Below are positions 3,001 through 55,413 of a DNA stretch of 64,000 nucleotides, piece by piece. The translations under genes and the position numbers were made by a program. The notes under the pieces are model-generated. The model saw only the letters and a list, made by a program, of their open reading frames with translations, was not told the DNA's origin and searched no databases. The stretch spans positions 47,112 to 111,111 of the forward strand of contig JAEUIC010000030.1 in assembly GCA_016795285.1 (NCBI GenBank), read 5' to 3'. Position 1 is the stretch's first letter, and each line of letters begins with the position of its first letter. This DNA comes from Planctomycetota bacterium. Lineage in GTDB: Bacteria; Planctomycetota; B15-G4; SIAN01.

Positions 3001-4531
3001 CGTCACCTTCAACCAGCCGCAGCAGCTGTTGATCGAGGACCTGCTCGATGCGGCGCTGCTGGCGCAGCCCGAGCTCGAGCCGTTCGCCTCCGCGCCCGCG
3101 CACGGCGAGCCGCTCTTCATCAAGAACCTGGAGAACGTGCAGGGCGACGAGCGCGACACGATGCTCTTCTCGGTCACCTACGGGAAGGACGCGCAGGGCC
3201 GCCTCTCGATGAACTTCGGGCCGCTCAACAAGCGCGGCGGCGAGCGGCGGCTGAACGTCGCCATCACGCGCGCGCGCGAGCGGCTGGTGGTCTTCACGTC
3301 GCTGCGCCCCGACGAGATCGACCTGGCGAAGACGACGGCGCCGGGCGTGCGCCACCTGCGCGACTACCTCGACTATGCGGCGCGCGGGCCGCAGGCGCTG
3401 GCCGCCGCGGTCACCGTCGATCCTGAGGCGGAGTGCGAGTCGGAGCTCGAGGCCGACATCGCGCGGGCGCTCGAGGCGCGCGGCCACCTCGTCGACCGGC
3501 AGGTCGGCTGCTCCGGCTACCGGATCGACCTGGCGATCCGCGATGCCGACGCGCGCGGCCGCCACTGGCTCGGCATCGAGTGCGACGGCGCCGCGTACCA
3601 CTCGGGCGCGACGGCGCGCGATCGCGATCGGCTGCGCCAGTCGGTGCTCGAAGGGCTCGGCTGGCGGATCCACCGCATCTGGTCGTCCGACTGGCTCGAG
3701 CGGCGCGAGCAGGAACTCGACCGCGTCGAGCAGGCGCTGCGCGACGCGCGCGAAGCGGCCGCGCAGGCGGCGGCGCAGGCGGCGGCGAGCGCGGCGAGCG
3801 CGGCGAGCGCGGCGTCGGTCGCGGAGGCGAAGTCGGCGCCGCCGGTGATGGCGGCGGCGGTGACCGCGCCGGTGATTCCGCCGCCGCCGCTCGATGCGGC
3901 CACGAATGCCGCGCTGCCGGTGCCGAGCGCCGCTGCGAGTGCACCGTCAGCGGTCGCGCCGACGGCCGTCGAGCCGCCGCTCTACCGCTCCTTCGAGGTG
4001 GTGGTGGTCGGCTCGCGCGACGATCTCGACGACCCGGGCGCGGCCTTGCGACTCGAGGAGCTGCTGCTGCGGATCGTCGACGTCGAGGCGCCGCTCCACC
4101 AGAAGCCGCTGCTGCAGCGCGCGGCGCGCTGCCTCGGCATCGGCCGAATGAGCGCCACCATCGAGGAGCAGCTCGAGGCGCTCCTCGTCGCATTGGCGAT
4201 GGCTGGCCGCCTCTTGCGGCGCGGCGAGTTCGTCTGGGCCGCCGGCGTCGATCCGCTCCGCTACGACACGGTGCGCACGGCGGCGCCTGACGACGGCCCG
4301 CGTCCCGCCGAGCAGATCGCGCCCGAGGAGCGCGCCGCGGCGCTGCGCCGCGTGCTGGCGGCCGGCGGCGGGGGTGCAGCAGAAGACGTCGCCGCCGCCG
4401 CGGCGCGCCTCTTCGGCTTCAAAGCGGTGCAGCAGAAGACGCGCGCCCTCTTCCGCGAGACGCTCGAGCAGCTGGCCGCGGCCGGCGAGTGCGAGCGGGT
4501 CGGCGACGTGGTGCGGCCGCGGTCGAAGTGA
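2..4531 (+). CDS. Giant DUF4011 / SF1 (Upf1-like) helicase / DUF3320 / DUF559 (Vsr-like REase) protein, 5'-partial. Resembles the Hhe helicase-nuclease defense family.
   Basis: The frame is open to the window edge. An 'LFLALGFLEWYE' DUF4011-like segment lies upstream of the first Met. Walker A is 'GPPGTGKSQTIAN'. AAA_12-like helicase C-terminal motifs include 'LNVAITRARERLVVF'. The C-terminal 'RIDLAI...ECDGAAYHSGATARDRDRLRQSVLEGLGWRIHRIWSSDW' is a DUF559/Vsr-like endonuclease fold. The 'LLRIVDVEAPLHQKPL' tail is DUF3320-like. Confidence 0.85.
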   Translation, partial: DRTHVEESGSSTLFLALGFLEWYESPSSQLPRLAPLLLLPVVLERRGVARRFTLKLRDDEPRLNDALLEKLKSELSIDPEPLRALPQDDHGVDVAALLERFRQLVARVPRFTVVEEARLGFFSFAKYLLWRDLEEHAEALLESELVRHLVKRADGGALPDPAFVEARRLDEVLPPTKARVVLDADSSQLVAIEAAVRGATFVLQGPPGTGKSQTIANVIAGCIAAGKRVLFVAEKRAALEVVANRLKRAGLGSACLELHSQRAAKHEVIGELARTLEEAPTARREDDPLLVERTEQLMRELDGYAAALHRRGPLGFNLYECLGRMARERGAASLPPLPLRAPLEVDRRGYEQRRAAVAELADAAAAATAGHDGALANHPFALCRAIDHTPLEAREREQQLRELVTRLADAKGALAAAASALGLPLPSGLPAARAAVATLRLLAEPLPGRAAEFVLRSDFAEAIEPLRDLARDLEADAAARATLAPRWNETLFTLDLAALEREFAQHGDSFAPLRWLKLRSAWATLTPALRGKAPDVAQTRADLALASAVAARARRFADEASFLDMTIGAAARGVATDRAALLRTAAFLERWQALRNDWSGAGVTQPPAARPLGPAGEAAAQALDAALAALDAALATVATALSVVPAWRDGLAAARDGLGLATTTAQRWLEALPLLRAHARYVRAEEAARALELAPLVDAVRRDALPPAAAPAAFERAFFTTVAEHAIGALPPLRNFDGTRHHARALQFRVEDARLIAAGGRRVVAEWSGRRTLRSDAAFAGSEVETLQREAKKKRRQKSVRRLLGEIPTLLRQLKPCLLMSPQSIAQYLPVSKELFDLVLFDEASQIPTHDAIGALARGRHVVVVGDEKQLPPTSFFERALADDEEESDDAPDGGLVRDLESILEEAQAAGVPSLPLRWHYRSRDESLIAFSNRHYYGSRLHTFPAAAGGAQGLGVARIDVGGTYDKAGQRTNEAEARAVVAWIVAALADPARRGKSIGVVTFNQPQQLLIEDLLDAALLAQPELEPFASAPAHGEPLFIKNLENVQGDERDTMLFSVTYGKDAQGRLSMNFGPLNKRGGERRLNVAITRARERLVVFTSLRPDEIDLAKTTAPGVRHLRDYLDYAARGPQALAAAVTVDPEAECESELEADIARALEARGHLVDRQVGCSGYRIDLAIRDADARGRHWLGIECDGAAYHSGATARDRDRLRQSVLEGLGWRIHRIWSSDWLERREQELDRVEQALRDAREAAAQAAAQAAASAASAASAASVAEAKSAPPVMAAAVTAPVIPPPPLDAATNAALPVPSAAASAPSAVAPTAVEPPLYRSFEVVVVGSRDDLDDPGAALRLEELLLRIVDVEAPLHQKPLLQRAARCLGIGRMSATIEEQLEALLVALAMAGRLLRRGEFVWAAGVDPLRYDTVRTAAPDDGPRPAEQIAPEERAAALRRVLAAGGGGAAEDVAAAAARLFGFKAVQQKTRALFRETLEQLAAAGECERVGDVVRPRSK

Positions 4532-8700: not shown

Positions 8701-11653
8701 TCCGTTCGTCGTGCCGCTCGATCCGCGCTCGAACGTGCTGGCCGACGCCGATCCGCGCCAGCTCTTCCAGGTCAGCACGGTGCTCGAGCGGTTCAACGAG
8801 GCGGGCGATGCGAGCCGCGTGACCGGCGCGTGCGGGATCGGGATCTACCGCGACGAGTGGCTCGGCACGGAGCTGTACGGCAACGCGTTCACTTGCGAGC
8901 CGGTGGCGAACGTCGTGCGGCGCACCGTGCTCGACACTCGCGGCAGCGCGGCGATCGGAAGGCGGGCGCCCGAGGAGGCGTCGCGCGAGTTCCTGGCCAG
9001 CCGCGATCCGTGGTTCCGGCCGGTGCAAGCGACCACCGGCCCCGACGGCGCGCTCTGGATCGTCGACATGTACCGCTTCGTGATCGAGCACCCGCGCTGG
9101 ATCCCCGCCGCGAAGCTCGCCGAGCTCGACGTGCGCGCCGGCGCGACGATGGGGCGGCTCTGGCGAGTGGTGAAGAAGGGGGCAGAGCGGCGCAACGTGG
9201 CGGACCTCGCGAACGCCGACGTCGCGCAACTGCGCGAACCGCTGGCGAGCCGCAACGGCGTGGTGCGCGACCTCGCGCATCGGGAGCTGCTGGCGCGGGT
9301 CGAGCCGCGCGCGCCGCGCTCGGTCGCCGAATCGGTCACCGAGTCGATCGCGAGCGGCGCGCCGAGCGGGGTCGAGGCGATCGCTGGCCGCATGCGCGCG
9401 ACCGCTCCGGCGGCGAAGGTGCAGGAGGCGTGGTGCTTCGCGCAGCTCGGCTGGCTCGAGGAAGGGGACGTGAGCGAGTTGCTGGCGTTGAACCAGCTGC
9501 CCGAGGTGCGCGCCGCCTGCATGCCGCTGGCGGAAGAGTGGTTGTCGAGGTTGACCGAGGAGTCGAGCGCTGCGAGCTGGCGCGGCGGTTCGCTGGCCCC
9601 GCCCCATCCGGTGACGGAGTGGAGCGTCTGGACGCCGGCGGACTGGAAGAGCCTCGAGAGCGATCGGGGTGGCGAAGGGGGCGGTCGCGCGCCGCGCCGC
9701 TCCTTCGAGCCGACCGGTCGCGAGCGGTTGCAGTCAGCGCTGGCGTTGAGCGAGTGCGCGACGACCTCCTCGGGGCGGCTGCTCGGCGAGCTGCTGGCGT
9801 TGCATGGCGACGATCCGTGGCTGCGCGCCGCGGTGGTGAGCGCTGCGCCGCGCCATGCCGGCGCGCTGCTCGAGGCGCTGCTCGATGCGCGACTCGCGGG
9901 GGCGACGCGCAGCCTGGCGCAACAGGAGGCGCTCGAAGCGGTGGTGACGACCGTCGGCGCGCTGCCGGCCGAGGCGCAGGCGGTGAAGCGCGCGGCGCTG
10001 GTTCCACTGCTCGGGGAAGGCGACGCGGCGAGTCGCGAGCCGTGGCGCTGGCGGGCGCTCGCGCGGTTGCTTGGCCCGGTTAGCGGCGGCAGCGGCGGCA
10101 GCGGCGGCAGCGGCGAGCCGAGCGGCGGCGGGGCGGACTTGCCGGCGTCGCTCGCGGCGCAGCTCGAGCGCCATCGGAGTGCCGCTCGCGAGGCGCTGCA
10201 GCGCGCGGACGTCGGGGGCGGCGCGGAGGAGGCCGACGCGGAGGAGTCCGACGCGGAGGAGTCCGACGCGGCGCCGGTCGCGGCGCTCGAGCTCTTATGC
10301 AGCGAGGCCACGCTGTCCAATTCGGCGGCGCTGCCGCTCGCCGAGCTCGCCGCGTTCGTCGAGCCGCGCCACTCGGCGCCGCTCGCCGGGGCGGCGCTCT
10401 CCGCGCTGGCGCGACGGGGTGATCGCGGCACGGCGGCCGAGCTGCTGCCGCGGTTGCCGCGCCTGCTGCCGGAGCGGCTCGGTGCCGCGCTGGCGCTGCT
10501 GCTGTCGCGCCCCGAATGGCGCCACGAGCTGCTCGCGGCGCTCGAGGCGGGGACGCTGTCGCGCGCGCTGCTCGATGCGGCGGCGCGCGAGCGGCTCTTG
10601 GCCGACGACGATGCGGCGCTGCGCGAGCGGGCGGCGAAGTTGCTGGCGCGCGGCGGCACCCCGAAGCGCGCGCAGGTGATCGCGCAGTTCCAGCCGGCGC
10701 TGTCGCTGGCGGGCGACCACGCGCACGGCAAGGCGCTCTTCGCGAAGCTCTGCGCGAGCTGCCATGCGTTCCGCGGCGTCGGCCACGAGGTGGGGCCCGA
10801 CCTCGCGGCGCTCGGCGATCGCAGCGCGCCGCGGCTGCTCGAGTCGCTGCTCGACCCGAACGGGGCGGTGAACGGCGAGTTCGTCAACTACCGCGTGGTG
10901 CTGAAGGACGGCAGCGATCTGTCGGGGCTGATCCGCGGCGAGTCGAGCGGCGGCTTCACGCTGGTGCAGGCGAACGACCAACGGCGCACGCTGCGTCGCG
11001 CCGAGGTCGCCGAGGTGAAGGCGTCGAAGCTGTCGCTGATGCCGGAAGGGCTCGAGGAGGGGCTTTCGGCGCAGGATCTCGCTGACTTGATCGCGTGGCT
11101 GCAGAGCGGGCCGCTGCGTCTCGGTGCGTTGTCGGCCGAATCGATCGCGGCGGCGCGCGCGGAGCTGGCGGCGGCGCCGCTGAACGGCTACGCGCAACTG
11201 CTCGAGCGGTTCGACGACTTCGCGCAGCCGAGCTGGCTCGGCGTGGTGCCGATGCGCTACTGCCGGCAGCAGGACGGCACGCAGCGGGTGCGCTGGCGCA
11301 GCGGGCCCGCGGAAGCGGTGGCGGGCGACCCGGCGCGCGTGCAGCTGCGCTTCGCCGTCGCGATGGGGCTCGTGTCGCAGCCGACGGCGGGCTTCGCGCT
11401 CGCGATCGACGGCGTCGAGCGGCTCCTCTTCGATGCGGTGGTGACCGATGCGAGCTGGAGCGCGGCGGCCGAGGCGGGCGAGCTGCCGATCGAACTCGCC
11501 TTCGAGTGCCGCGCCGCCCACTCCGAGGACGCGACCGGCGTCATGACCCTGACGCTCCCCGCCGAGCGCTTCCCCGCCGGCTCCACCGTCGAACTGACCG
11601 TCACCGGCCGCGCGGCCCCAAGCCTGCGCTGGTTCGGCCTCCTCGTCCCCTAG
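5705..11653 (+). CDS. Multidomain secreted/membrane protein. Domain order is LamG-like jellyroll, neutral/alkaline-ceramidase-like, TIGR02604-type membrane-bound dehydrogenase beta-propeller, HEAT repeats, then a C-terminal TIGR02603-type cytochrome c (CxxCH).
   Basis: An N-terminal hydrophobic stretch 'MVPIDAGVVPLLVALFTAM' means the true start may be about 5735. The ceramidase motif is 'SVTHTHAAP' with flanking conservation. The dehydrogenase domain reads 'VAIDFAADGTVYVCEMNDYP'. HEAT-like repeats follow. The heme site is 'CASCHAFRGVGHEVGPDLAAL'. Low-complexity GGS and EESDA linkers occur near 10081-10270. The stop TAG at 11651-11653 is contributed by the adjacent repeat element. Confidence 0.8.
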   Translation: MAARGRVETAMVPIDAGVVPLLVALFTAMQGAPPPIAPSRGAPPAGAIGAAGAAPTSAMLDALTFAATFDRGLDAEVARGDGRLHHGPSWGPPRHGEPGLVPSGAVTRERRGALRGQALRFQRRTDELLFFHGAGNTPWRARDWSGTLSFWLCAEPQGELPDGFCDPVTVTSKDWNDAGLFCEFEKREMFRHFRMGAYADLAVWNATSKPWGELSFEEKSLAQVEAEDHFGGRWTHVAMAFERFNSGAADGVARLYLDGQLAATLSPRLQTWTWEEAAQRIVLGLNYVGWLDELAWFDRALTEGEIAALHALPGGLADLWRPRVAVGAAKVDVTPRFPIRLCGYASREKEATSAVQPLFARALAVGEGDDLALLLALDNTAVPQRMTDEVAVRLAERFGLQPERFTLSVTHTHAAPVLDGGIDCMFGRPIPADQWQRIEQYSRELVDRLEEAGAAAIAARAPALLSWSEGQVDFARNRRTAGGPVDRALPLLAVFREDGTLAATVQNYACHCTACDGSVNQHCGDWAGYASEGIEAAHGGAVALTVIGCGADANPADGPSGDLRVAQRHGASVAAEVARLLRGPLVPLLTDRARDGGAPQIALERLELPYAPFPTREQWAARVKAGGAVGFHAAQWLARLDRGEALPAALPYSVQAWQWGDDLVQLFLPGEVVVDYALRLKRELDRARLWVTAYSNDVPCYIPSERILREGGYEAGGAMTYYGRPGPLAAGVEQRIVDAVHRLVPPAFAAPPDDPRFPTAKSAAESREQFELSRDDLAVELVACEPQVQSPVAIDFAADGTVYVCEMNDYPTGLDGNYQPGGRVTWLRDRDGDGRFEQSGVFVDGLPFPTGVMSWRRGALICAAPDILYAEDRDGDGRADVKQVLFTGFSTENYQARVNSLTWGLDGWIYGSCGLFGGVITGFAHDALGRASGAAPQALPPVDCRGRDFRLDPARGVIEAIEGTSQQGRVRDDFGRWFGCDSGWLVFEFPLADRVLRRNPFVVPLDPRSNVLADADPRQLFQVSTVLERFNEAGDASRVTGACGIGIYRDEWLGTELYGNAFTCEPVANVVRRTVLDTRGSAAIGRRAPEEASREFLASRDPWFRPVQATTGPDGALWIVDMYRFVIEHPRWIPAAKLAELDVRAGATMGRLWRVVKKGAERRNVADLANADVAQLREPLASRNGVVRDLAHRELLARVEPRAPRSVAESVTESIASGAPSGVEAIAGRMRATAPAAKVQEAWCFAQLGWLEEGDVSELLALNQLPEVRAACMPLAEEWLSRLTEESSAASWRGGSLAPPHPVTEWSVWTPADWKSLESDRGGEGGGRAPRRSFEPTGRERLQSALALSECATTSSGRLLGELLALHGDDPWLRAAVVSAAPRHAGALLEALLDARLAGATRSLAQQEALEAVVTTVGALPAEAQAVKRAALVPLLGEGDAASREPWRWRALARLLGPVSGGSGGSGGSGEPSGGGADLPASLAAQLERHRSAAREALQRADVGGGAEEADAEESDAEESDAAPVAALELLCSEATLSNSAALPLAELAAFVEPRHSAPLAGAALSALARRGDRGTAAELLPRLPRLLPERLGAALALLLSRPEWRHELLAALEAGTLSRALLDAAARERLLADDDAALRERAAKLLARGGTPKRAQVIAQFQPALSLAGDHAHGKALFAKLCASCHAFRGVGHEVGPDLAALGDRSAPRLLESLLDPNGAVNGEFVNYRVVLKDGSDLSGLIRGESSGGFTLVQANDQRRTLRRAEVAEVKASKLSLMPEGLEEGLSAQDLADLIAWLQSGPLRLGALSAESIAAARAELAAAPLNGYAQLLERFDDFAQPSWLGVVPMRYCRQQDGTQRVRWRSGPAEAVAGDPARVQLRFAVAMGLVSQPTAGFALAIDGVERLLFDAVVTDASWSAAAEAGELPIELAFECRAAHSEDATGVMTLTLPAERFPAGSTVELTVTGRAAPSLRWFGLLVP

Positions 11654-11787
11654 GTGGCGGGGAGAAAACGGCGGTCAGATCCGCACCTCGGAGGGTGCGA
11701 CGGCGGCGAATGCGGTTGCGGGCTTAGGGGCGTGGCGTGGTGACGTCGGTGAAGTGCGGATTCGACCGCCGTTTTCCCCCCGCCACC
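11653..11787. repeat. REP/MITE-like element, locus 1. Two inverted 34-nt units (11653-11686 and 11754-11787) flank a 67-nt spacer and form a long potential hairpin.
   Basis: GGTGGCGGGGAGAAAACGGCGGTCAGATCCGCAC ... GTGCGGATTCGACCGCCGTTTTCCCCCCGCCACC. The same unit recurs at 50794-50910 and 63239-63307. Confidence 0.85.
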
Positions 11788-11884
11788 TTGGCGGAAGCGG
11801 CACTACCGGCGCGAGCCGGATAACAGGTCTTCGGCTCGTGGCTCTGGCGAGGGGCTGCCGCAAGGGCGGCGCGAGGAGCCGAGC

Positions 11885-12886
11885 ATGGAGCGGACGAGGG
11901 CGGAACGGTCGAGCGGCGCCGGCGGCGGAGTCGTGCGCGAGCGCTGTCGCTGGTCGAGGGCGGGCGCGCTGCTCGGGCTGTTGGCGGCGGTGGTCGCCGG
12001 CGGCTGCACGAAGGCGCGCGCGCTCAGCCCCGACGAGCAGCAGGCGCAGGTGGCGCCGGCCAAGCCGGGGACGGCGGCGACCGTCTACACCGTGAAGGTG
12101 CCGGGCGTCGGCTGAAGCGGCGGCCCCAAGGTCCGTGCGGCCTTGCTGAAGCTGAAGGGGATCGCCGAGTTCGCGTTCGACTGCAAGACGGCGACGCTGA
12201 CGATGGAGGCGGGCGCCACGCTGCGCGAGAGCGACGTGCTCGAGGCGCTGAAGAAGGACGGCTTCACCGGCGAGTCGTTCTCCGCGAGCGCGCCGCCGCC
12301 GATCGCCATCGTCGAAGCGAGCGTCGAGTTGCTCGCTCGCGGGGCGCGTTTCGATGCCGCGACCTGCCGCACCGTCGCCGAGCAGCTCGCCGCCGCGCTG
12401 CCGATGACGAGCGACTGGCAGGTCGGTGCCGATGGCCGCGCGCGCGGCCGCTTCACCGCGACGCCGCCCGCGCCCGCGGCGCTCGAAGCGCTGTTGCTCG
12501 ACGCGCTGGCGAAGCCGCGCAGCGCGCCGCCCGCGGCCGACGGTGCGACTGGTGGTGCGACTGGTACTGCGCCCGCTGCGGCGCCAGCTCCTGCCCCTGC
12601 CGCCGCCCCGCTCGAGTGGCGCCTCGTCCGTTCGAGCGCGCAGCTGCTCGAGTGGCCCGCGAGCGTCGCTCGCGCGAACGTGACGCTGGCGGCGCCGCTC
12701 GCGCCGTCGAGCTGGCCGGCGCTGCGCACCGCGCTCGCGTCGCTCGAGCAGATCGTCGCGTGGTCGCCGGGCGGCGACGGTGCGACGCTCGTGGTCTGGA
12801 CCAAGGAGCCGTGCGCCAACCTCGCGACGCGACTCGCCGGCGCACTCGCGCCGCTCGCGATCACGGTGGCGCGCGTCGATTCTTGA
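11885..12886 (+). CDS. HMA (heavy-metal-associated) domain lipoprotein, with an in-frame TGA at 12113-12115 at the first metal-binding Cys position. Either a selenoprotein candidate or a disrupted gene.
   Basis: The signal and lipobox read 'LLGLLAAVVAGGC'. A ferredoxin-like HMA fold reads straight through the TGA as 'TVYTVKVPGVG[TGA]SGGPKVRAALLKLKGIAEFAFDCKTATLTMEAG..SDVLEALKKDGF'. ORFs 11885..12115 and 12143..12886 are in the same frame. The true start may be GTG/ATG within 11885-11960. Confidence 0.5.
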
Positions 12887-12926
12887 AGCTCTCGAATCGC
12901 CCCGCCGAGGGCACACGGAGGGATCC

Positions 12927-13778
12927 ATGCTCGCGACACCATTCGCCACGATCCGTCGACTTGCCGCCTGCGCGGCGACCGGCGGCGCCCTGCTCGCGCT
13001 CTGCCACCCGCTCCCCGCCGCCGAGCCCGGCCACGCCGCGCTCGCCTGCCCCGCTCCCGCTGCCCTCGCCGCGCCCCCCGCATCGCTCGGCGCGCCGCTG
13101 ATCTGCTTCCCGCTCGAGGTCGCCGACGAGGCGCTGCTGCCGTTCGAGCCGGGGAGCGAGACGCGGCCCACCGTCGCGCCCGCCGAGCTGCCGGCCGCGC
13201 TCGCGACGCTCTTCGCCGCCCACGCCGATCCGCTGCTCCACATGGAGGCGCTGCGGCGCACCGTGATGACGCTCACCCACGATCCGGTCGCGCAGCCGTC
13301 GAGCCGCGCCGCCGCGCAGCCGACCCACTTCGCGCGCCTCCTCGCGGCGCTCGAAGCGGCCGTCGTCGCTGCCGAGCTGCTCCCCGCCGACGATCCCGCC
13401 GCGCCCGCGCGCCGCGCGCTCGCTTGGTTCGACCTCGGCTATGCGCGCGAGACGGGCGCCACGATGGGGCTCACCCGCGAGCGCGGCGGCGGCTGTCTCG
13501 CGAAGGCGTGCCGCCTGCAGCCCGACGCGCCGCTCCTGCGCTTCGGCACCGCGCTGGTCGCCTTCCAGGAGGAGCGCATCGAGCGGGCGGTCGACGGCAC
13601 CGGCGCTCCTATCAGCGCGGGCGACTGGCGCGACCACCTGCGCCATGCGATGGTCGGCACGCCGTCACCGCTGCTCACCCGCAACCTGCTCTCGACCTTC
13701 GGAGCTTTCTTGGATCACCGCACCTTCGAGGCCCTCCGTGCTGCTGTCGCCGGTGGCGCTGACTCCCGCGATCGCTGA
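12927..13778 (+). CDS. Hypothetical secreted protein
   Basis: The ATG at 12927 is followed by the signal-like 'MLATPFATIRRLAACAATGGALLAL'. Its 3' end overlaps the start of the ECF sigma gene. No domain was recognised. Confidence 0.5.
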   Translation: MLATPFATIRRLAACAATGGALLALCHPLPAAEPGHAALACPAPAALAAPPASLGAPLICFPLEVADEALLPFEPGSETRPTVAPAELPAALATLFAAHADPLLHMEALRRTVMTLTHDPVAQPSSRAAAQPTHFARLLAALEAAVVAAELLPADDPAAPARRALAWFDLGYARETGATMGLTRERGGGCLAKACRLQPDAPLLRFGTALVAFQEERIERAVDGTGAPISAGDWRDHLRHAMVGTPSPLLTRNLLSTFGAFLDHRTFEALRAAVAGGADSRDR

Positions 13779-14301
13779 CGACGGCGCGGTCGCCGGCCTG
13801 GCGCGCGCCGCCAGCGCCGGCGATCGCGGCGCGTTCGCGCAACTGCACGCTCGCTTCGCGCGAGCGGTGCGGGCGCTGCTGCTCGCCCATGCGCCGTTGC
13901 GCGAGGTCGACGACCTCCTGCAGGAGACCTTCCTGCAGGCGTGGCGCGCGCGCGCCGCGTTGCGCGAGCCGGACCGCTTCGGCGCGTGGCTCTTCGCGAT
14001 CGGCCGCTCGCTGGCCGGTCGCGCGCGCCGCCGCGCGCCGCGCGAGGAGCTGCCCGAGTCGCTGCCCGCGCCGGGCGCCGAGCGCCACGCGCAGCTCGCG
14101 GCCGAAGGGGCCGAGGCGCTCGCCGCGCTGCGCGAGCTGCCGGAGGCGTACCGCGAGACGCTCGCGATGCGGTTGATCGAGGGGCTGTCGGGGCCGGAGA
14201 TCGCGGCGGCGACCGGCCTCACGCACGGTTCGGTGCGCGTCAATCTCCACCGCGGCATGGAGCTGTTGCGCGAACGACTGCACGCGGGAGTGAAGCGATG
14301 A
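13753..14301 (+). CDS. ECF-type RNA polymerase sigma factor
   Basis: Region 2 reads 'LLQETFLQAWRA'. Region 4 reads 'LSGPEIAAATGLTHGSVRVNLHRGMELLRERL'. The GTG start at 13753 is inferred. The stop overlaps the anti-sigma start as ATGA. Confidence 0.8.
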   Translation: MALTPAIADDGAVAGLARAASAGDRGAFAQLHARFARAVRALLLAHAPLREVDDLLQETFLQAWRARAALREPDRFGAWLFAIGRSLAGRARRRAPREELPESLPAPGAERHAQLAAEGAEALAALRELPEAYRETLAMRLIEGLSGPEIAAATGLTHGSVRVNLHRGMELLRERLHAGVKR

Positions 14302-15455
14302 ACGACCCGCACGACGATCCGCTCTTCGATCCCGCGCTGCCGGCCGACGCCGAGCTCGGCGCGCTCGAGCGCCGCTTCGCGCCGCTGCGCGAGCGACCGT
14401 TGCCACCGTTGCCGCCGCTCACCGACGCGGCGCCCGAAGGGGTCGCGCCGCGGCTGCGCTTGCTGCGGGGCGGGCGAGCGGCGGCGGCGGCCGTGCTGCT
14501 GCTCGCGGCCGCCGCAGGAGCGTGGCGCCTCTCGATCGGCGCGGGCGGCGCTGCGGGTGGCGGCGCAAGCGGCGGCGACGCGAGCGGCGGCGCGAGCGAG
14601 CGCGAGCCGCGGGCGCCGGTGGCGAGCGCGGTCGAGGGCGCGGCGCTCGACGTTTCGCTGGCGCGGCGCGACGGCGCGGTGCGCGTCGAGCCGGCCGCGG
14701 GCGGCGCGGCGCGCGACGGCACCGACCCCGATGCGCTGCAGCTCGGCGACCGGATCGTCTGCGAGCCGGGCGGCGGCGCGCGCGTGCGCGTCGGCGCCAT
14801 CGGCTGGCTCGAACTCGCCGAGCGGACCGAGCTGCGCGTCGCGGCCGGCCATGGCGATCGCACCCGCGAAGGGGGGTGGCATCTCGAGCTCGAGCGCGGC
14901 ACGGTCGACGCGACGATCTTCGCGGCGCCGCGCGTCTTCGCGCTCGGCACGCCGGCCGGCATCGCGGTCGACCTCGGCTGCATCTACCGGACCACGGTCG
15001 ACGGCGAGGGACGCGTCTTCCTGTCGGTCGTCGCGGGCAGCGTCTCGTTCGAGAGCGGCGGACGCAAAGTGCACGTGCCAGCGGGTGCCGGCTGCCGCGC
15101 GTGGCCGATGGTCGGTCCCGGCGTTCCGTCGTGGGACGACGACGCGCCGGAGCTGAAGGAGCTGCTGCGGCTCTACGACGAGTCGCGCCTCTGCGGCGAT
15201 GGCGTCACCGCGGAAGAGCGGATCGAGCAGCTGCTCGCGCTGCTCGGGCCGAAGCCGGCGCCGCGCGCCTCGCTGTCGTTGTGGCACCTGCTCGCCGGGC
15301 TCGCGCCCGACGCGCCGCCGGCGTTGCGCACGCAGCTGGCCGATCGGCTCGCCGCGCTGGTGCCACCGCCCGAGAAGGCACCGCTCGAGCGCTGCCGCAG
15401 CGGCGATGCCGAGGCGCTCGCCGAGTGGCGCGAGGCGCTCGAACTCCACTGGTGA
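14298..15455 (+). CDS. Anti-sigma factor, FecR-domain, single TM
   Basis: The ATG at 14298 overlaps the sigma stop. The TM helix reads 'AAAAVLLLAAAAGAW'. The FecR-like beta domain reads 'GDRIVCEPGGGARVRVGAIGWLELAERTELRV...GTVDATI'. Confidence 0.75.
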   Translation: MNDPHDDPLFDPALPADAELGALERRFAPLRERPLPPLPPLTDAAPEGVAPRLRLLRGGRAAAAAVLLLAAAAGAWRLSIGAGGAAGGGASGGDASGGASEREPRAPVASAVEGAALDVSLARRDGAVRVEPAAGGAARDGTDPDALQLGDRIVCEPGGGARVRVGAIGWLELAERTELRVAAGHGDRTREGGWHLELERGTVDATIFAAPRVFALGTPAGIAVDLGCIYRTTVDGEGRVFLSVVAGSVSFESGGRKVHVPAGAGCRAWPMVGPGVPSWDDDAPELKELLRLYDESRLCGDGVTAEERIEQLLALLGPKPAPRASLSLWHLLAGLAPDAPPALRTQLADRLAALVPPPEKAPLERCRSGDAEALAEWREALELHW

Positions 15456-15493
15456 GCGGTGCGACTGGTGAGCGGCGCTGCTGGTGAGCGGCG

Positions 15494-16921
15494 CTACCAG
15501 CCGCGCGTGAACCAGGTGTGGCCGGGCCCGTTGTAGTTGGCCCCTTCGCCCCAGATCACGTGGTTGGTGCCGAACTGATCGACCGCGAGCCCGAGGTAGT
15601 CGCCGAAGACGAAGTCGTAGCCGAGCGAGCTCTTGTAGACGACCGGCACGTCGAGCTGCGACAGGCGCACGTCGTTCGACCAGGTGGCGCCGCCGTCGCG
15701 CGTCTCCTTGAACCAGGTGTTCCACGTGCCCGCCATGCGCGTGTCCTGCCAGACGATGCGGAAGTCGCCGGGCGTCGAGCTGGTGGCGACGGCGGGGAAG
15801 CCGTTGTGCACCGCGTTCGGGGCCACCGAGATCTGCTGGCGCGCGCTCCAGTTGACGCCGTCCGTCGAGGTGGAGAACCAGAGCTTCTGCGGTCGGCGCC
15901 GCCCGACGCCGGCGTTCCAGACGTACATCAAGGTGCCGGCCGAATCGCAGGCGATCGACGACTGCGGACCGAGGAAGCCGAAGTAGCAGCCGGGCACGCT
16001 GCCGCAGCCGGGCATCTCGTCGGAGGTGTCGATGCGGACGGTGCTCCAGGTGGCGCCGTTGTCGGTGGAGCTGGTCACGTTCACGTAGGTGGGGCCGCCG
16101 AAGTCGAAGCGGTAGTCGGCGGTGGCGAAGTGGACGTCGCCGTTGGGCGCGACGCAGCCGCCGGTGTGGTACCAGTAGCGGCCGTTGCTGGCGGTCTGGA
16201 TCGGCGCGGTCCAAGTCGCGCCGCCGTCGTGCGAGACGACGACGTAGGGATCGGAGGAGTTGAAGCCGACGAAGAGGTCCTGGCCGTTCGGATGGACCAC
16301 CAGCCACGGCTTGTCCGACCAGCCCGACGGGAAGGCGCTGCTCTTCGGCGCCAGCGCGATCGGCGCGGTCCAGGTGCGGCCGTGGTCGCTCGACTTCTTG
16401 AAGCTGACGCCTGGCGTGAAGAGGCTCAACCAGACCACGAAGACGGTCCCGTCGTCGGAGACGGCGATCTGCGGATCGGCCTCCCACCGGCGCGTGTTCT
16501 CGATGTACTGGTCGGGCTGCCACGTCTGCCCGCCGTCGGTCGAGATGCGCAGCGGCAGGTGGGGCTGCGAGAAGGCGTTCGGGTCGCCGTAGCGCGTGGT
16601 CGACTGGTAGACGTACTTGCCGTCGCGGCTGCAGGCGACCGCCGGCTCCCAGTCGGAGAAGTAGCTCATCGGCAACTCGCCGTCGAAGGTCGACGCGGTG
16701 CCGGTCGGCGGCGGAGTGCTGGCGGGCGTCGTGGCGCTCGGTCGCTTGCTCGACATCGATTGCGCAAGCGCCTGCGAGAGGAGCGCGCCGCTCATCGAGT
16801 CGAGGTGCGCCTTCGGGCGCCGCTCGTGCTCCTCTTCGCCGTGCTCCGCGTCGTCGGTGGCGGCGCACGCGGTGACCAGCAGCGGAACGAGCGCGAGCAG
16901 CAGTCGATGCGGGAGGGGCAT
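15494..16921 (-). CDS. BNR/Asp-box repeat glycosidase-like (sialidase family) lipoprotein
   Basis: The lipobox is 'LLVTAC'. At least six S-x-D-x-G-x-T-W Asp-box repeats are present: 'STDGGQTW', 'SSDHGRTW', 'SHDGGATW', 'STDNGATW', 'STDGVNW' and 'TRDGGATW'. The 1833-aa ORF call is an artifact. Confidence 0.8.
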   Translation of the reverse strand: MPLPHRLLLALVPLLVTACAATDDAEHGEEEHERRPKAHLDSMSGALLSQALAQSMSSKRPSATTPASTPPPTGTASTFDGELPMSYFSDWEPAVACSRDGKYVYQSTTRYGDPNAFSQPHLPLRISTDGGQTWQPDQYIENTRRWEADPQIAVSDDGTVFVVWLSLFTPGVSFKKSSDHGRTWTAPIALAPKSSAFPSGWSDKPWLVVHPNGQDLFVGFNSSDPYVVVSHDGGATWTAPIQTASNGRYWYHTGGCVAPNGDVHFATADYRFDFGGPTYVNVTSSTDNGATWSTVRIDTSDEMPGCGSVPGCYFGFLGPQSSIACDSAGTLMYVWNAGVGRRRPQKLWFSTSTDGVNWSARQQISVAPNAVHNGFPAVATSSTPGDFRIVWQDTRMAGTWNTWFKETRDGGATWSNDVRLSQLDVPVVYKSSLGYDFVFGDYLGLAVDQFGTNHVIWGEGANYNGPGHTWFTRGW

Positions 16922-21065: not shown

Positions 21066-22088
21066 TCAGGCCTCCGCGAGCGCCTCCGACAGCGAGCGAG
21101 CGTCGAGGATGCGCAGCGCCCAGACCTCGATCTGCTCGGACGGTGCGGCGCGCACGCGGGCCACGACGGCTTCCGACAGCTCCCCGAACCGGCGGCGCAA
21201 CTGCTTCAGCAAGAGGTCGCGCTGCCCGAGATCGTGCCCTTCGGCGATCAACTCCTCGCCCATCGTCATGGTCGTCTCCTTCGCTCCAGGGTCGATGAGA
21301 CGCGGCGCGATCTCGTCGCGCAGGAAGGCGCGTCCGATCCGTTCTCCAGTGATCGAAAGATAGCGCAGCACCAGCATCAGTGCCGCCCGGCCGCCCGGGG
21401 CGCGCGCCGTCGCGTTCATCAGCTCGACCCAATCGATCACCCGCTCGCGCAGGTCGGGGGCGGTGCGCGCGTGCTTCAGCGCGAGCAGCGCCAGCAGCGC
21501 GGCGGCGTCGAGGACGGTGCTCCGCAGCTCGCCGTCGCGGACCTGCGTCAAGTCGGTCAAGTGGAAGAGGAAGTCGAGCGAGCCGGCCTGCTCCTCGGGA
21601 TGCGCGTCGACGAGGTGGGCGAAATCGGCGGGAGCGGGCCACGCGTTTCCGCCGTGGTAGAGCACCGCCGGCACGATCAGCGGCAGCTCGCGGGTGTCGG
21701 CGTGTTCGCGACGCCAGCGCTCCCAGATCGCGCGCTGGTAGTCGAGCAGGCGCAGCGGAAGCCAGCGATCGATCGAGCTCTGATGCTCGATCAGCAGGTG
21801 GATCAGGCGCGGCGTGGATTCGTCAGCTTCGCCGGAAGGCTGGCCGGCAGGCGGCGGCCCGAAGCTCGCACGCGTGCGCGCCGTCGTTCGCGGCTCCACG
21901 GTGAAGAGCAGGTCGGCAGCCCGTCCGCGCAGCTCCGGATCGACGAAGCTGCCCGGCACGGCCTGCAATGTCGCGAGGTCGAGCTGCAGGAGGAGCCGCT
22001 GCGGGAGCATGCTCCGCAGCAGCGCCGCCGCTCGCGCAGGGTCGCCGAAGACGGCGCGGACGAGGTGATCGTGGGGGTGCGAGAGCAT
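21066..22088 (-). mobile_element. Rpn/YhgA-like recombination-promoting nuclease (PD-(D/E)XK transposase-like)
   Basis: The N-terminal 'HDHLVRAVFGDPARAAALLRSMLP' is characteristic of the family. A C-terminal DUF4351-like tail is present. Confidence 0.75.
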
Positions 22089-22165: not shown

Positions 22166-22906
22166 ATGCGACGCATCTACATCGGCGACCTGCAGGGCTG
22201 TCGCGAGGAGCTCGAGCGGCTGCTCGAGGCGGTGAAGTTCGATCCGGCGCGCGATCGGCTCCACTCGGTCGGCGATGCCATCAACCGTGGCCCCGACTCG
22301 GCCGGCTGCGTGCGGCTGCTGAAGCAGCTCGACGCCGTGATGGTGCTCGGCAACCACGAGCTCCACTGGTTCGACGTCGCGGCCGGCTGGCGCAAGGCGG
22401 GCAAGCGCGACACGCTGCAGTCGCTCGAGCAGGCGCCCGATCGCGACGAGCTCGACGCGTGGCTGCGCGCGCGGCCGCTGCTGCACGTCGAGCGCGACGT
22501 GGTGCTGGTCCACGCCGGCCTTGATCCGCGCTGGAGCGACCTCGAGGCGACGGCGGCGCGGCTGCGCGCGGCGCTCGACGGGGCGCTCGCGACCGGCCAC
22601 TCGCCGTGGGAGCTCGCCGAGGTCGCCTTCGCGACGTCGGTGCGCTACTGCGACTCCGAGGGGCGCGAGCCGGAGGGCGACTGGCCGCCGCCGCCCGCGC
22701 CCTACGAGCCGTGGGACCACTGGTACCGCGGGGCACGCATCGTCGTCTGCGGCCACTGGGCGCGCCGCGGCGTGGTGGTGGCGGAGAAGCTGCGCGCGCT
22801 CGACTCGGGCTGCGTCTACGGCAAGCAGCTCACCGCCTGGATCGCCGAGGAGCAGCGCCTCGTGCAGGTGCCGGCCAAGCGCGCCTGGTCGCCGGTCACG
22901 GCGTGA
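22166..22906 (+). CDS. apaH: Bis(5'-nucleosyl)-tetraphosphatase (symmetrical), ApaH-like metallophosphoesterase
   Basis: Motifs are 'IYIGDLQGC', 'GDAINRGPDS' and 'LGNHE'. Start ATG at 22166. Confidence 0.7.
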   Translation: MRRIYIGDLQGCREELERLLEAVKFDPARDRLHSVGDAINRGPDSAGCVRLLKQLDAVMVLGNHELHWFDVAAGWRKAGKRDTLQSLEQAPDRDELDAWLRARPLLHVERDVVLVHAGLDPRWSDLEATAARLRAALDGALATGHSPWELAEVAFATSVRYCDSEGREPEGDWPPPPAPYEPWDHWYRGARIVVCGHWARRGVVVAEKLRALDSGCVYGKQLTAWIAEEQRLVQVPAKRAWSPVTA

Positions 22907-55380: not shown

Positions 55381-55413
55381 CGTCCTAGCTCGATAGGACG
55401 GTGCATGTCCTAC
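55381..55413. promoter_or_regulatory. Palindromic operator array GTCCTA-N6-TAGGAC-N7-GTCCTA overlapping the start codon of the GntR gene
   Basis: CGTCCTAGCTCGATAGGACGGTGCATGTCCTA. Two overlapping perfect inverted repeats share the central half-site. The ATG lies at 55405-55407. Confidence 0.5.

What the first reader, a model, noticed from the sequence alone, without database searches (positions are those of the whole stretch)
11885..12886. HMA metal-binding lipoprotein interrupted by one in-frame TGA at the first metal-binding Cys position: selenocysteine candidate or fresh pseudogene
Two same-frame ORFs, 11885..12115 and 12143..12886, are separated only by the TGA at 12113-12115. Reading through gives a continuous ferredoxin-like HMA fold. 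Beta-1 is 'TVYTVKV'. The metal loop 'PGVG[*]SGGPK' aligns with the canonical G-M-x-C-x-x-C, with the stop at the first Cys position. Alpha-1 is 'VRAALLKLKGI', followed by beta-2, beta-3 and alpha-2. A lipoprotein signal 'LAAVVAGGC' lies upstream. A UGA exactly at a redox- or metal-active Cys is the classic signature of bacterial selenoproteins. A potential stem-loop, GGCGG-C-CCCC...GGGG-AU-CGCC, follows the UGA and contains GGUC in its loop, but it starts only 3 nt after the UGA rather than the typical 11 nt. The alternative is a recent nonsense mutation in a CopZ/MerP-like periplasmic metal chaperone. The gene sits directly upstream of a hypothetical secreted protein and an ECF sigma / FecR anti-sigma pair, which fits a metal-responsive envelope module of the CorE type.
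Basis: partly seen in the sequence, partly recalled or inferred. Interest (0 to 1): 0.7.

Follow-up and report, generated by a model that had tools for sequence, protein, structure and literature searches.

The report
New selenocysteine lipoprotein family in Planctomycetota
The in-frame stop codon is almost certainly a conserved selenocysteine codon with its RNA signal, in a membrane-anchored, metal-chaperone-like protein family of Planctomycetota that I could not find in current selenoprotein catalogues; it is not a broken gene.

Summary
ORFs 11885..12115 and 12143..12886 are one reading frame interrupted by a single TGA at 12113-12115.

The TGA is not a fresh mutation. All 23 related loci that include this region keep a TGA at the same codon. 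They comprise about 16 distinct sequences, down to 25-35% protein identity, from genomes of 65-77% GC. The frame and flanking peptide (V-P-G-x-G-U-x-x-x-x-K-V-R) are also kept, while the true terminator varies between TGA and TAG.

Twelve nucleotides after the TGA lies an invariant hairpin, C15-G33, with 7 bp and loop C22-G23-U24-G25-C26. It is held in place by otherwise rare codons. It meets the published bacterial SECIS consensus and puts G23/U24 where E. coli fdhF has them.

The read-through product is a lipoprotein with three tandem HMA-like ferredoxin folds. Sec aligns with MerP Cys14. The second CxxC Cys is absent. Two other Cys (FDCK, EPC) are nearly invariant.

No Cys-form, NCBIfam model or entry in the 2026 list of 119 selenoprotein families was found.

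Not shown: the Sec machinery of this genome, actual Se incorporation, and the ligand.

The parts
11873..11878 (+). Shine-Dalgarno GAGGAG, 6 nt upstream of the start codon ATG 11885
   Evidence: Conserved block GAGGAG followed by ATG in the alignment of 7 upstream regions.
11885..12886 (+). Complete selenoprotein gene: 333 codons including Sec77, plus terminator TGA at 12884-12886
   Evidence: Single frame with one internal TGA. GC3 is 0.98 on both sides of it. Orthologs keep the same architecture.
11885..12007 (+). Signal peptide and lipobox; the lipid-modified Cys41 would be 12005-12007 (VVAGG|C)
   Evidence: A hydrophobic stretch ending in a conserved Cys is present in all homologs with a complete N-terminus. 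Lipoprotein processing is inferred from the motif.
12074..12283 (+). Domain 1: MerP-like HMA domain (beta1 TVYTVKV, loop VPGVG-U-SGGP, alpha1 KVRAALLKL, beta2-turn-beta3 FAFDCKTATLTM, alpha2, beta4)
12113..12115 (+). In-frame TGA, predicted selenocysteine codon (Sec77), aligned to the first Cys of GMTCxxC
   Evidence: TGA is at the same codon in all 23 loci that cover it. TGA is an ordinary stop in this genome (33 of 41 called genes).
12127..12145 (+). Predicted bacterial SECIS core: 7-bp stem C15-G33 with apical loop C22 G23 U24 G25 C26 (12134-12138), counting U of UGA as 1
   Evidence: It is the only helix after the UGA in the RNAalifold consensus of 11 sequences. AAGGTCCGTGNGRCCTT occurs once per locus, always 12 nt after the TGA. 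The only stem change is U.G to U-A (L007, L021). Rare codons CGT and TTG are fixed.
12182..12184 (+). Nearly invariant Cys100 (FDCK) in the beta2-beta3 turn of domain 1; candidate second ligand or selenenylsulfide partner
   Evidence: Conserved in at least 90% of 17-20 aligned members. Its position in the turn comes from the AF2 model. Proximity to loop 1 is inferred from the beta-alpha-beta-beta-alpha-beta topology and was not measured.
12302..12511 (+). Domain 2: ferredoxin-like (beta-alpha-beta-beta-alpha) domain without a metal motif, followed by an Ala/Pro-rich linker (12512-12616) of variable length
   Evidence: AF2 model, pLDDT mostly above 85 in the domain and 58-78 in the linker. The linker is deleted or shortened in L003, L004 and more distant members.
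12617..12880 (+). Domain 3: ferredoxin-like domain carrying the invariant E-P-C motif (Cys310 at 12812-12814)
   Evidence: AF2 pLDDT 96-98. E, P and C are invariant in 20 sequences.
12927..13778 (+). Conserved downstream partner: 283-aa secreted, all-helical TPR-like protein with an invariant Cys (GAPL[VI]CFP)
   Evidence: Found directly downstream of the selenoprotein gene in window, L001-L005, L007, L008, L011, L012, L015 and L024. Alignment. AF2 and Foldseek. No Pfam or NCBIfam hit.
13738..14301 (+). ECF sigma factor; its start overlaps the end of the partner gene
   Evidence: Sigma70_r2 and r4_2. TIGR02937 is above its cut-off. Syntenic in L001, L004, L008 and L015.
14298..15455 (+). Putative anti-sigma factor (385 aa, one predicted transmembrane stretch); its start overlaps the sigma gene's stop
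   Evidence: Position and ATGA-type overlap. Homologs follow the sigma gene in L001 and L008. No Pfam or NCBIfam family, FecR included, at the E-value cut-offs used (0.001 and 0.01). The role is inferred from context only.

Best explanation
Window 11885-12886 is a single gene for a selenoprotein.

How the UGA is passed: translation starts at ATG 11885. At UGA 12113-12115 the ribosome does not terminate. The mRNA hairpin 12 nt downstream (12127-12145; 7-bp stem, loop CGUGC with G23/U24) acts as a bacterial SECIS. It recruits SelB.GTP.Sec-tRNA(Sec), and selenocysteine is inserted as residue 77.

The product: it is exported, lipid-modified at Cys41 and anchored in the envelope. It consists of three tandem HMA-like (beta-alpha-beta-beta-alpha-beta) domains. 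In the first, Sec occupies the place of the first metal-ligand Cys of the MerP/CopZ loop (VPG-x-G-U). The second Cys of CxxC is missing.

Most likely function: binding or handing over a soft, thiophilic ligand (Hg(II), Cu(I), Cd(II) or a selenium/sulfur species). The site would be built from the selenolate plus the nearly invariant Cys of the adjacent beta2-beta3 turn (FDCK), possibly also the invariant EPC Cys of domain 3. Alternatively, Sec and Cys cycle as a selenenylsulfide. In one clade it probably works with a secreted TPR-like partner and an ECF sigma / anti-sigma pair.

Shown: one frame, a conserved TGA, a conserved SECIS-like hairpin, the HMA-like fold, the lipobox, the conserved Cys residues and the synteny.

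Inferred: SelB-dependent Sec insertion, the nature of the ligand, and any link to sigma-factor signalling.
For: 1. TGA conservation. TGA sits at the same codon in all 23 loci that cover it, in the same frame, with flanking peptide TY-x-V-x-VPG-x-G-U-xxxx-KVR. This holds across roughly 16 distinct sequences, down to 25-35% identity. The real terminator varies between TGA and TAG.

2. No code reassignment. TGA terminates 33 of 41 called genes in the window.

3. The hairpin.
- The invariant block AAGGTCCGTG(C/A)G(G/A)CCTT lies 12 nt after the TGA in every locus and nowhere else in them.
- RNAalifold keeps only this helix after the UGA. The single stem substitution preserves pairing (U.G to U-A).
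- Its codons include CGT (1.7% of Arg codons in the neighbouring 1982-aa gene) and TTG (8.4% of Leu codons). Both are fixed in 13 of 13 distinct sequences.
- By contrast, 10 of 15 other invariant 4- or 6-fold-degenerate residues vary in codon. By my own arithmetic, Fisher p is about 0.03.
- Third-position differences drop to 0-0.07 around the TGA, against 0.15-0.35 elsewhere.

4. Fit to the SECIS definition. The published bSECIS consensus requires a loop of 3-9 nt, an upper stem of 4-16 bp, a G followed by G or U within the first two loop positions, and 16-37 nt between the UGA and the loop (PMC13188914). Here the loop is 5 nt (CGUGC), the stem 7 bp and the distance 18 nt. G23/U24 coincide with the SelB-contacting G23/U24 of E. 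coli fdhF (PMC8659212; numbering).

6. Phylum. The window and homologous MAGs are Planctomycetota, a phylum with documented complete Sec machinery in several genomes (PMC4807772).

7. Precedent. Sec at the first Cys of an HMA motif is already listed for a cation-transporting ATPase (UxxC), and a 'MerP' selenoprotein was reported from the GOS metagenomes.
Against: - No selA, selB, selD or tRNA-Sec gene lies in the 64-kb window or in any fetched flank. The machinery of this particular organism is therefore unverified.
- No Cys-containing member of the family was found. That is unusual for selenoproteins and removes the classical Sec/Cys-pair test at family level.
- The hairpin shows no compensatory (double) changes, because it is almost invariant. 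Structure is inferred from conservation and geometry, not from covariation.
- The hairpin lacks the bulged U17 of the E. coli element.
- HMA and MerP sequence scores are below the curated thresholds.
- Nothing was measured about the ligand. Gene context differs between clades: ECF module in one, radical SAM plus sulfatase in another.
Confidence: 0.85

Rival explanations
1. SelB-independent programmed read-through or regulated termination. The conserved hairpin slows the ribosome or competes with release factor 2. A near-cognate tRNA (Trp, Cys or Arg) then sometimes reads UGA, giving a mix of a short 76-aa lipopeptide and a full-length protein without selenium.
For: The TGA and the hairpin are conserved, yet no Sec machinery could be shown for this genome. 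No Cys-form exists to prove chemical equivalence.
Against: The hairpin meets every criterion of the bacterial SECIS consensus, including G23/U24 at the E. coli positions. The UGA falls exactly on a metal-ligand Cys position of a known fold, which is the hallmark of Sec. I know of no conserved bacterial read-through signal of this type (own knowledge). The base after the UGA is not conserved (A, G or U), as expected if the context of the stop itself is not the signal.
Confidence: 0.07
2. Two separate conserved genes: a 76-aa lipoprotein ending at TGA 12115, and a 247-aa cytoplasmic protein starting at TTG 12143. The read-through alignment would then be coincidental.
For: This is how every gene caller has annotated the locus and all its homologs.
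Against: The 27 nt between the two 'genes' is in frame, is the most conserved DNA of the locus, and encodes helix alpha1 of the HMA fold. The downstream ORF has no conserved start codon: callers chose different codons in different homologs. It would lack a signal peptide, beta1 and the metal loop. The HMA profile spans the stop.
Confidence: 0.03
3. Recent nonsense mutation, pseudogene or base-calling error in a CopZ/MerP-like gene.
For: None, beyond the bare presence of a stop codon in one sequence.
Against: The same TGA occurs in independent assemblies from NCBI, ENA, JGI and Logan, at 25-94% protein identity. Both halves are under coding constraint: GC3 is 0.98, and third-position change exceeds overall nucleotide change across the gene, including the stretch just upstream of the TGA. 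No homolog has a sense codon there.
Confidence: 0.01
4. It is a selenoprotein, but its role is thiol/selenol redox chemistry in the envelope rather than metal handling. For example, a selenenylsulfide relay with the Cys of the secreted partner protein, or a selenium-carrier function.
For: Most selenoproteins are redox proteins (PMC13188914). The CxxC pair is broken (U-x-x-G/N). Single invariant Cys residues occur in FDCK, in EPC and in the partner's GAPLVCFP.
Against: The fold and loop are those of metal-binding HMA proteins, closest to MerP. No thioredoxin-like fold or redox partner gene is conserved next to it.
Confidence: 0.3

Closest known systems
MerP (periplasmic mercury-binding protein; TIGR02052, PDB 1osd/1afi) and other single-domain HMA metallochaperones (CopZ, Atx1, ZntA N-domain)
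   Same: Same beta-alpha-beta-beta-alpha-beta fold. The loop sequence VPG-x-x-[C/U]-x-x-x-P at the beta1/alpha1 junction is nearly that of MerP (VPGMTCSACP vs VPGVGUSGGP). Both are located in the envelope.
   Different: Sec replaces the first Cys. The second Cys of CxxC is Gly or Asn. A conserved Cys sits in the beta2-beta3 turn instead. The protein has three tandem domains and a lipid anchor. Sequence scores are far below the family cut-offs (13.5 vs 92.55 bits for MerP; 17.1 vs 24.8 for Pfam HMA). There is no mer operon context.
[quoted passage not shown]
   Same: Selenocysteine is listed at Cys positions of CxxC-type motifs in metal-handling proteins, UxxC for the ATPase and UxxU for NF041115 (PMC2398784; PMC13188914). 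That the ATPase motif lies in its HMA domain is my own inference; I did not inspect these sequences.
   Different: Those keep a second Cys or Sec (UxxC, UxxU); this family has U-x-x-G/N. No NCBIfam selenoprotein model, NF041115 included, matches the read-through protein even at E <= 10. The domain architecture (lipobox plus three domains) and the phylum also differ. The GOS 'MerP' sequences themselves could not be compared.
E. coli fdhF SECIS and the bSECISearch consensus
   Same: A stem-loop inside the coding sequence directly after the UGA. The upper hairpin starts at about nt 15, with apical-loop G23-U24, a 5-nt loop and a 7-bp stem, 18 nt from the UGA.
   Different: There is no bulged U17. 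The loop is CGUGC rather than GGUC. No conserved lower stem was found. The sequence is almost invariant across a highly diverged protein family.
Envelope ECF sigma / anti-sigma modules
   Same: An ECF sigma gene and a membrane protein gene with overlapping stop/start follow the selenoprotein and partner genes, and are syntenic in one clade.
   Different: The sigma factor has no Cys-rich extension (no Cys at all), so it is not CorE-like. The putative anti-sigma has no FecR or other family hit. The module is absent next to the GANA-clade members.

Membership tests
Bacterial selenoprotein gene | In-frame UGA conserved at the same position in orthologs, with coding sequence conserved on both sides | tested here: met
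   23 of 23 loci, same codon column, same frame. GC3 is 0.98 on both sides.
Bacterial selenoprotein gene | bSECIS immediately downstream: apical loop 3-9 nt with a G (followed by G or U) in the first two positions, upper stem 4-16 bp, 16-37 nt from the UGA | tested here: met
   Loop CGUGC, 7-bp stem, 18 nt from the UGA, checked against the consensus quoted from PMC13188914. Support comes from invariance and one U.G to U-A change, not from compensatory covariation.
Bacterial selenoprotein gene | Sec aligns with Cys in homologs (Sec/Cys pair) | tested here: inconclusive
   No Cys-form exists within the family. At superfamily level the UGA aligns with MerP Cys14 and the first Cys of ZntA.
Bacterial selenoprotein gene | selA, selB, selC (tRNA-Sec) and selD present in the same genome | not testable with these tools
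   Only 64 kb of the genome is available. None of these genes is in the window or in the flanks of homologs. Sec machinery is documented in other Planctomycetes (PMC4807772).
Bacterial selenoprotein gene | Selenium shown in the protein (75Se labelling or mass spectrometry) | not testable with these tools
   Requires an experiment.
HMA domain (Pfam PF00403) | Sequence score at or above the gathering threshold (24.8 bits) | tested here: not met
   17.1 bits, E 0.007, although the full profile is covered (1-61 of 62).
HMA domain (Pfam PF00403) | Beta-alpha-beta-beta-alpha-beta ferredoxin-like fold superposable on HMA structures | tested here: met
HMA domain (Pfam PF00403) | GMxCxxC metal-binding motif with two Cys ligands | tested here: not met
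   The motif is G-x-G-U-x-x-G/N. The first ligand is Sec and the second is absent in all members.
MerP (TIGR02052 equivalog) | Score at or above 92.55 bits, and mer operon context | tested here: not met
   13.5 bits. No merT, merA or merR nearby.
Bacterial lipoprotein | Signal peptide ending in a lipobox with an invariant Cys at +1 | tested here: met
   VVAGG|C in the window. VIGG|C, VASS|C, AGSA|C, VLGA|C, ALG|C, VGTA|C and VVA|C in homologs. This is motif inspection only; no predictor was run.
CorE-type ECF sigma factor | C-terminal Cys-rich metal-sensing extension and no anti-sigma factor | tested here: not met
   The 187-aa sigma (13738-14301) contains no Cys (translation). It is followed by a membrane protein gene with overlapping start.
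FecR-type anti-sigma factor | FecR domain (Pfam PF04773) | tested here: not met
   No Pfam or NCBIfam hit for 14298-15455 at E <= 0.001 and 0.01.

The most novel reading that the evidence does not exclude
This is an obligately selenium-dependent family (no Cys-form anywhere) in which a Sec-based soft-metal or selenium-binding lipoprotein acts as the periplasmic sensor or input. Together with a secreted TPR-like partner carrying a single invariant Cys, it would signal to an ECF sigma / anti-sigma switch in Planctomycetota. That would be a selenoprotein working in envelope signal transduction rather than in catalysis. Its near-invariant SECIS would reflect an unusually strict SelB recognition rule in this phylum.
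Probability: 0.15. Interest if true: 0.75.

Novelty: new member of a known kind. Interest (0 to 1): 0.58.

Why it matters
- **Annotation.** Every database copy of this gene (NCBI, ENA, JGI, Logan) is split into two 'hypothetical' ORFs. Recognising the UGA as Sec restores a complete, exported three-domain protein.
- **Catalogue.** It adds a family that is absent from the 2026 inventory of 119 prokaryotic selenoprotein families and from NCBIfam.
- **Biology.** It is a rare case of Sec as the sole ligand-loop residue of an HMA fold, apparently with no Cys-form. That makes it a clean system for asking what selenium does that sulfur cannot do in metal binding.
- **A practical probe.** The invariant 17-nt SECIS core can be used to search for further selenoproteins, and for SelB specificity, in Planctomycetota.
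- **Pathway lead.** The conserved link to a secreted partner and an ECF sigma module gives a testable entry into envelope metal or selenium sensing in a poorly studied phylum.

Tried and rejected
**Single-sequence folding of 12105-12185.** The MFE is not better than shuffles (z -0.30). In a 75% GC genome, folding energy alone is uninformative, so I relied on comparative data.

**Rfam scan of 11650-12950.** No SECIS family was hit. There were only sub-threshold miRNA-type hits, caused by an unrelated long inverted repeat upstream.

**Search for Sec machinery.**
- ARAGORN on the window and on 14 loci found no tRNA-Sec.
- Pfam on 40 called genes of the window found no SelA, SelB or SelD.

**Search for other selenoprotein genes in the window.** I looked for an in-frame TGA with high GC3 on both sides. 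Only 12113 is convincing.

**Search for Cys-forms.** I ran a word-indexed search with the read-through, an exhaustive HMMER search with the post-TGA part and a profile search with full-length U-to-C sequences. Only truncated Sec-forms came back. P0005 and P0006 (1101 and 2589 aa), which match only short stretches at about 25% identity, were set aside as probable low-complexity Ala/Pro matches without inspecting their sequences.

**Structure prediction of the full read-through.** Only the post-TGA 256 residues were modelled.

**Other failed calls.**
- The first locus search with the 17-sequence alignment failed for lack of a conserved stretch. It was repeated with 7 sequences.
- The afdb50 fold library was unavailable.

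**Partner protein 12927-13778.** It has no family hit. Its AF2 model gives only weak TPR-like fold matches (E > 0.2), so it offers no functional clue.

**Sigma-70 promoter and terminator scan of 11500-15600.** It found nothing above the shuffle expectation.
Full report
**1.

The window has ORFs 11885..12115 (76 aa) and 12143..12886 (247 aa) in the same + frame. The only stop between them is TGA at 12113-12115. The window is about 75% GC, so long ORFs occur in all six frames. The + frame, however, has GC3 = 0.98 on both sides of the TGA, the signature of real coding sequence here.

The read-through reads MERT...LLAAVVAGGC TKAR...TVYTVKVPGVG-*-SGGPKVRAALLKLKGIAEFAFDCKTATLTM.... Pfam HMA matches residues 69-127, across the stop and along the whole profile. 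The score is 17.1 bits, below the 24.8-bit threshold. NCBIfam gives only a very weak MerP hit.

HMMER alignments to solved MerP and ZntA domains pair VPGVG[U]SGGP-KVRAALLKLKGI with VPGMTCSACPiTVKKAISKVEGV. The stop therefore lies on the first ligand Cys, and the second Cys position is Gly.

**2. The TGA is ancient and universal in the family, not a lesion**

- A first protein search returned three relatives (94, 85 and 68% identity). All had been called as ORFs truncated at the same point.
- Their contigs, from Logan, ENA and NCBI assemblies, all carry an upstream 74-76-aa ORF, a TGA, and 27 nt before the called start, in the same frame.
- An exhaustive HMMER search of 1.84 billion representatives with the post-TGA part found 18 proteins. 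Sixteen are 186-241 aa long and begin within a few residues of the same point.
- DNA for further members was obtained from three Planctomycetota MAGs, ten metagenome contigs and direct look-ups.
- In every one of the 23 loci that include the region, an in-frame TGA occupies the same codon. The variants are VPGVG-U-SGGPKVRAAL, VPGVG-U-SAGPKVRA(A/T)L, VPGAG-U-GANAKVRAAL, V(L/I)GAG-U-SAGPKVR(E/A)AL, I(S/T)GVT-U-SSN(A/K)KVR(A/E)(A/T)L and VSGAS-U-SSNPKVRAAL.
- A signal peptide ending in a lipobox Cys, and strand beta1, precede the TGA in all loci with a complete N-terminus.
- The genuine terminator differs between members (TGA or TAG). TGA ends 33 of 41 called genes in the window. The genetic code is therefore standard, and only this UGA is special.
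- No member has a sense codon at the site, and no Cys-form was found.

**3. A SECIS-like hairpin is the most conserved DNA of the locus**

Among four close orthologs, third-position differences fall to 0-0.07 from just before the TGA to about 35 codons after it. Elsewhere they are 0.15-0.35.

Across all members the block AAGGTC-CGTG(C/A)-G(G/A)CCTT is invariant. It occurs exactly once per locus, always 12 nt after the TGA.

RNAalifold on 11 distinct sequences keeps only this helix after the UGA. It has seven pairs. The sole substitution turns a U.G pair into U-A (the same change is seen in L021).

Counting the U of UGA as 1, the stem is C15-G33 and the loop is C22 G23 U24 G25 C26. In window coordinates this is 12127-12145.

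The six codons that encode it (AAG GTC CGT GCG GCC TTG, for KVRAAL) include CGT and TTG. These make up 1.7% of Arg and 8.4% of Leu codons in the neighbouring large gene. They are nevertheless fixed in 13 of 13 distinct sequences. By contrast, 10 of 15 other invariant residues with 4- or 6-fold-degenerate codons vary in codon choice. My arithmetic from that table gives C(9,4)/C(19,4) = 0.03.

The element satisfies the published bacterial SECIS consensus: loop 3-9 nt, upper stem 4-16 bp, a G followed by G or U in the first two loop positions, and 16-37 nt from the UGA (PMC13188914). Here the values are 5 nt, 7 bp, C-G-U and 18 nt. It also places G23/U24 where the SelB-contacting G23/U24 of E. 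coli fdhF lie, with the hairpin starting about 11-12 nt after the UGA (PMC8659212). It lacks the bulged U17.

Its arms are different sequences in the GANA and SSN clades and are not in the consensus structure.

**4. What the protein is**

AlphaFold2 was run on the 256 residues after the Sec, with 17 family sequences. The full read-through could not be submitted. Mean pLDDT is 87.7 and pTM 0.75. The model has three parts:
- the remainder of domain 1 (alpha1, beta2, turn, beta3, alpha2);
- a second beta-alpha-beta-beta-alpha unit;
- after an Ala/Pro-rich linker of variable length, a complete beta-alpha-beta-beta-alpha-beta domain.

The product is therefore a lipoprotein with three tandem HMA-like domains. 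Only the first has a ligand loop.

Besides Sec77, two Cys are conserved. One is Cys100 in F-D-C-K, in at least 90% of members. The other is Cys310 in E-P-C, invariant. Cys100 lies in the beta2-beta3 turn. In the beta-alpha-beta-beta-alpha-beta topology that turn is on the same face as the beta1-alpha1 ligand loop and next to it. This is an inference from established fold topology; no distance was measured.

**5. Organism and context**

The window encodes planctomycete-specific PSCyt3, PSD2-5 and DUF1552 proteins and a PVC-type heme-binding CxxCH protein. The three genome hits are Planctomycetota MAGs. Complete Sec-insertion gene sets have been reported in several Planctomycetes, including Gemmata obscuriglobus, Isosphaera pallida and two Porphyra-associated strains (PMC4807772).

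No sel gene or tRNA-Sec lies in the window or in the fetched flanks. This is the main gap.

In the clade that includes the window (motifs SGGP and SAGP), the gene is followed by three others:
- a 283-aa secreted, all-helical TPR-like protein with an invariant Cys (GAPL[VI]CFP);
- an ECF sigma factor;
- a membrane protein with an overlapping start.

The partner protein is better conserved than the selenoprotein: 66% vs 33% identity in L024. In the GANA clade the downstream genes are instead a radical SAM protein and a sulfatase.

The sigma factor has no Cys, and the putative anti-sigma has no FecR hit. 'CorE-type' and 'FecR' are therefore not supported.

**6. Mechanism**

Best-supported: SelB and Sec-tRNA(Sec) are recruited by the hairpin and insert Sec at UGA 12113-12115. 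The mature lipoprotein displays a selenolate in a MerP-like loop. Because the second loop Cys is missing, I propose that Cys100, and perhaps Cys310, complete a soft-metal site (Hg, Cu(I) or Cd), or form a selenenylsulfide with Sec.

The recoding step rests on conservation and on agreement with the SECIS definition; I give it about 0.85. The metal-binding role rests on fold and loop similarity only, and I give it about 0.5. A purely redox or selenium-carrier role is a live alternative.

Rivals for the recoding step:
- SelB-independent read-through (about 0.07);
- two separate genes (about 0.03);
- pseudogene or sequencing error (about 0.01, refuted by conservation).

**7. Comparison with what is known, and novelty**

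Sec at CxxC-type motifs of metal-handling proteins has precedent. Examples are the cation-transporting ATPase (UxxC), a 'MerP' selenoprotein in the GOS metagenomes (two sequences), and NF041115 (UxxU) (PMC2398784; PMC13188914). That the ATPase motif lies in an HMA domain is my inference; I did not inspect those sequences.

The present family is not in the 119-family table of the 2026 review. The BSepDB paper has no occurrence of HMA, MerP, lipoprotein or Planctomycetota terms. No NCBIfam model matches, even at E <= 10. All database copies are split 'hypothetical' ORFs.

It differs from the precedents in four ways:
- the motif (G-x-G-U-x-x-G/N plus a remote Cys);
- the architecture (lipobox plus three domains);
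- the phylum;
- the apparent lack of any Cys-form.

I file it as a new member (a new family) of a known kind: a bacterial selenoprotein with a standard-type SECIS on a known fold. Interest is moderate to fairly high for selenoprotein and metal-homeostasis specialists. The mechanism of recoding is conventional. The obligate use of Sec, the ultra-conserved SECIS and the link to an ECF module are the unusual points.

**8. Limits**

- There is no covariation support for the hairpin, because it is invariant.
- Sec machinery could not be looked for in the source genome.
- The structure model lacks beta1 and the Sec loop.
- The ligand and physiological role are inferred.

Noticed in passing
window 11649-11791: Long inverted repeat with 41-nt arms (88% complementary, 61 nt apart). 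The RNA fold is -93.6 kcal/mol, z = -7.0 against shuffles. It lies between the stop of the 1982-aa PVC-type heme-binding protein gene and the selenoprotein gene, and caused sub-threshold miRNA-precursor hits in Rfam. The arm sequences (GGTGGCGGGGA... / ...CCCCGCCACC) are partly conserved in L004 and L008. It may be a terminator or insulator, or a protein-binding palindrome.
   Followed up: partly
window 11818-11825 (GGATAACA); homologous positions in L001, L003, L004, L008, L012, L015: An A/T-rich motif, GTTAACA (GATAACA in the window), is conserved about 60-75 nt upstream of the start codon in seven loci, against an otherwise divergent 75% GC background. It is a candidate promoter or operator element of the selenoprotein operon.
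   Followed up: no
window 12927-13778: The 283-aa secreted, all-helical (weakly TPR-like) protein directly downstream has no Pfam or NCBIfam family and an invariant Cys in GAPL[VI]CFP. It is more conserved than the selenoprotein itself. Its stop overlaps the ECF sigma gene by 41 nt.
   Followed up: partly
window 22896-25604 (-) and L010 13882-16626 (-): A 902-aa protein fuses sigma-70 regions 2 and 4 to CarboxypepD_reg (transthyretin-like) repeats. A 25%-identical homolog also lies 3 kb from the selenoprotein gene in the distant GANA-clade locus L010.
   Followed up: no
L009, L010, L013, L016 (downstream of the selenoprotein gene; e.g. L010 10746-13872): In the GANA clade the selenoprotein gene is followed by a radical SAM protein (in L010; a similar-sized gene in L013) and a sulfatase with TPR repeats (in L010; similar-sized genes in L009 and L013), not by the TPR-like partner and ECF module. 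L016 ends within the first downstream gene, and only the L010 genes were scanned. The family's conserved context is therefore clade-specific.
   Followed up: partly
window 55405-62753: A GntR regulator and an ABC ATPase are followed by three tandem paralogous membrane-protein genes of about 650-695 aa. The first two have near-identical N-termini (MTPFA.LVWKEWRGERRSIATLAGAAALLP). Only the third gives a weak ABC2_membrane_4 hit.
   Followed up: no
window 62070-62154: ARAGORN calls an 85-nt tRNA-Gln(CTG) that lies inside the coding frame of the third paralog (60792-62753). It is probably a false positive in GC-rich DNA. A similar tRNA-Arg call in L003 lies inside the large heme-protein gene.
   Followed up: no
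window 2-4531 and 21066-22088 (-): A large DUF4011 / AAA_11 / AAA_12 / REase_MTES_1575 / DUF3320 helicase-nuclease protein is cut by the window start. A YhgA-like (Transposase_31) gene is also present. These are possible mobile or defence-related genes near the locus.
   Followed up: no
L008 10807-11217: The homolog of the 283-aa partner protein in MAG JANNXA01 matches in two overlapping pieces that appear to be in different frames. This suggests a frameshift or an assembly error in that MAG.
   Followed up: no
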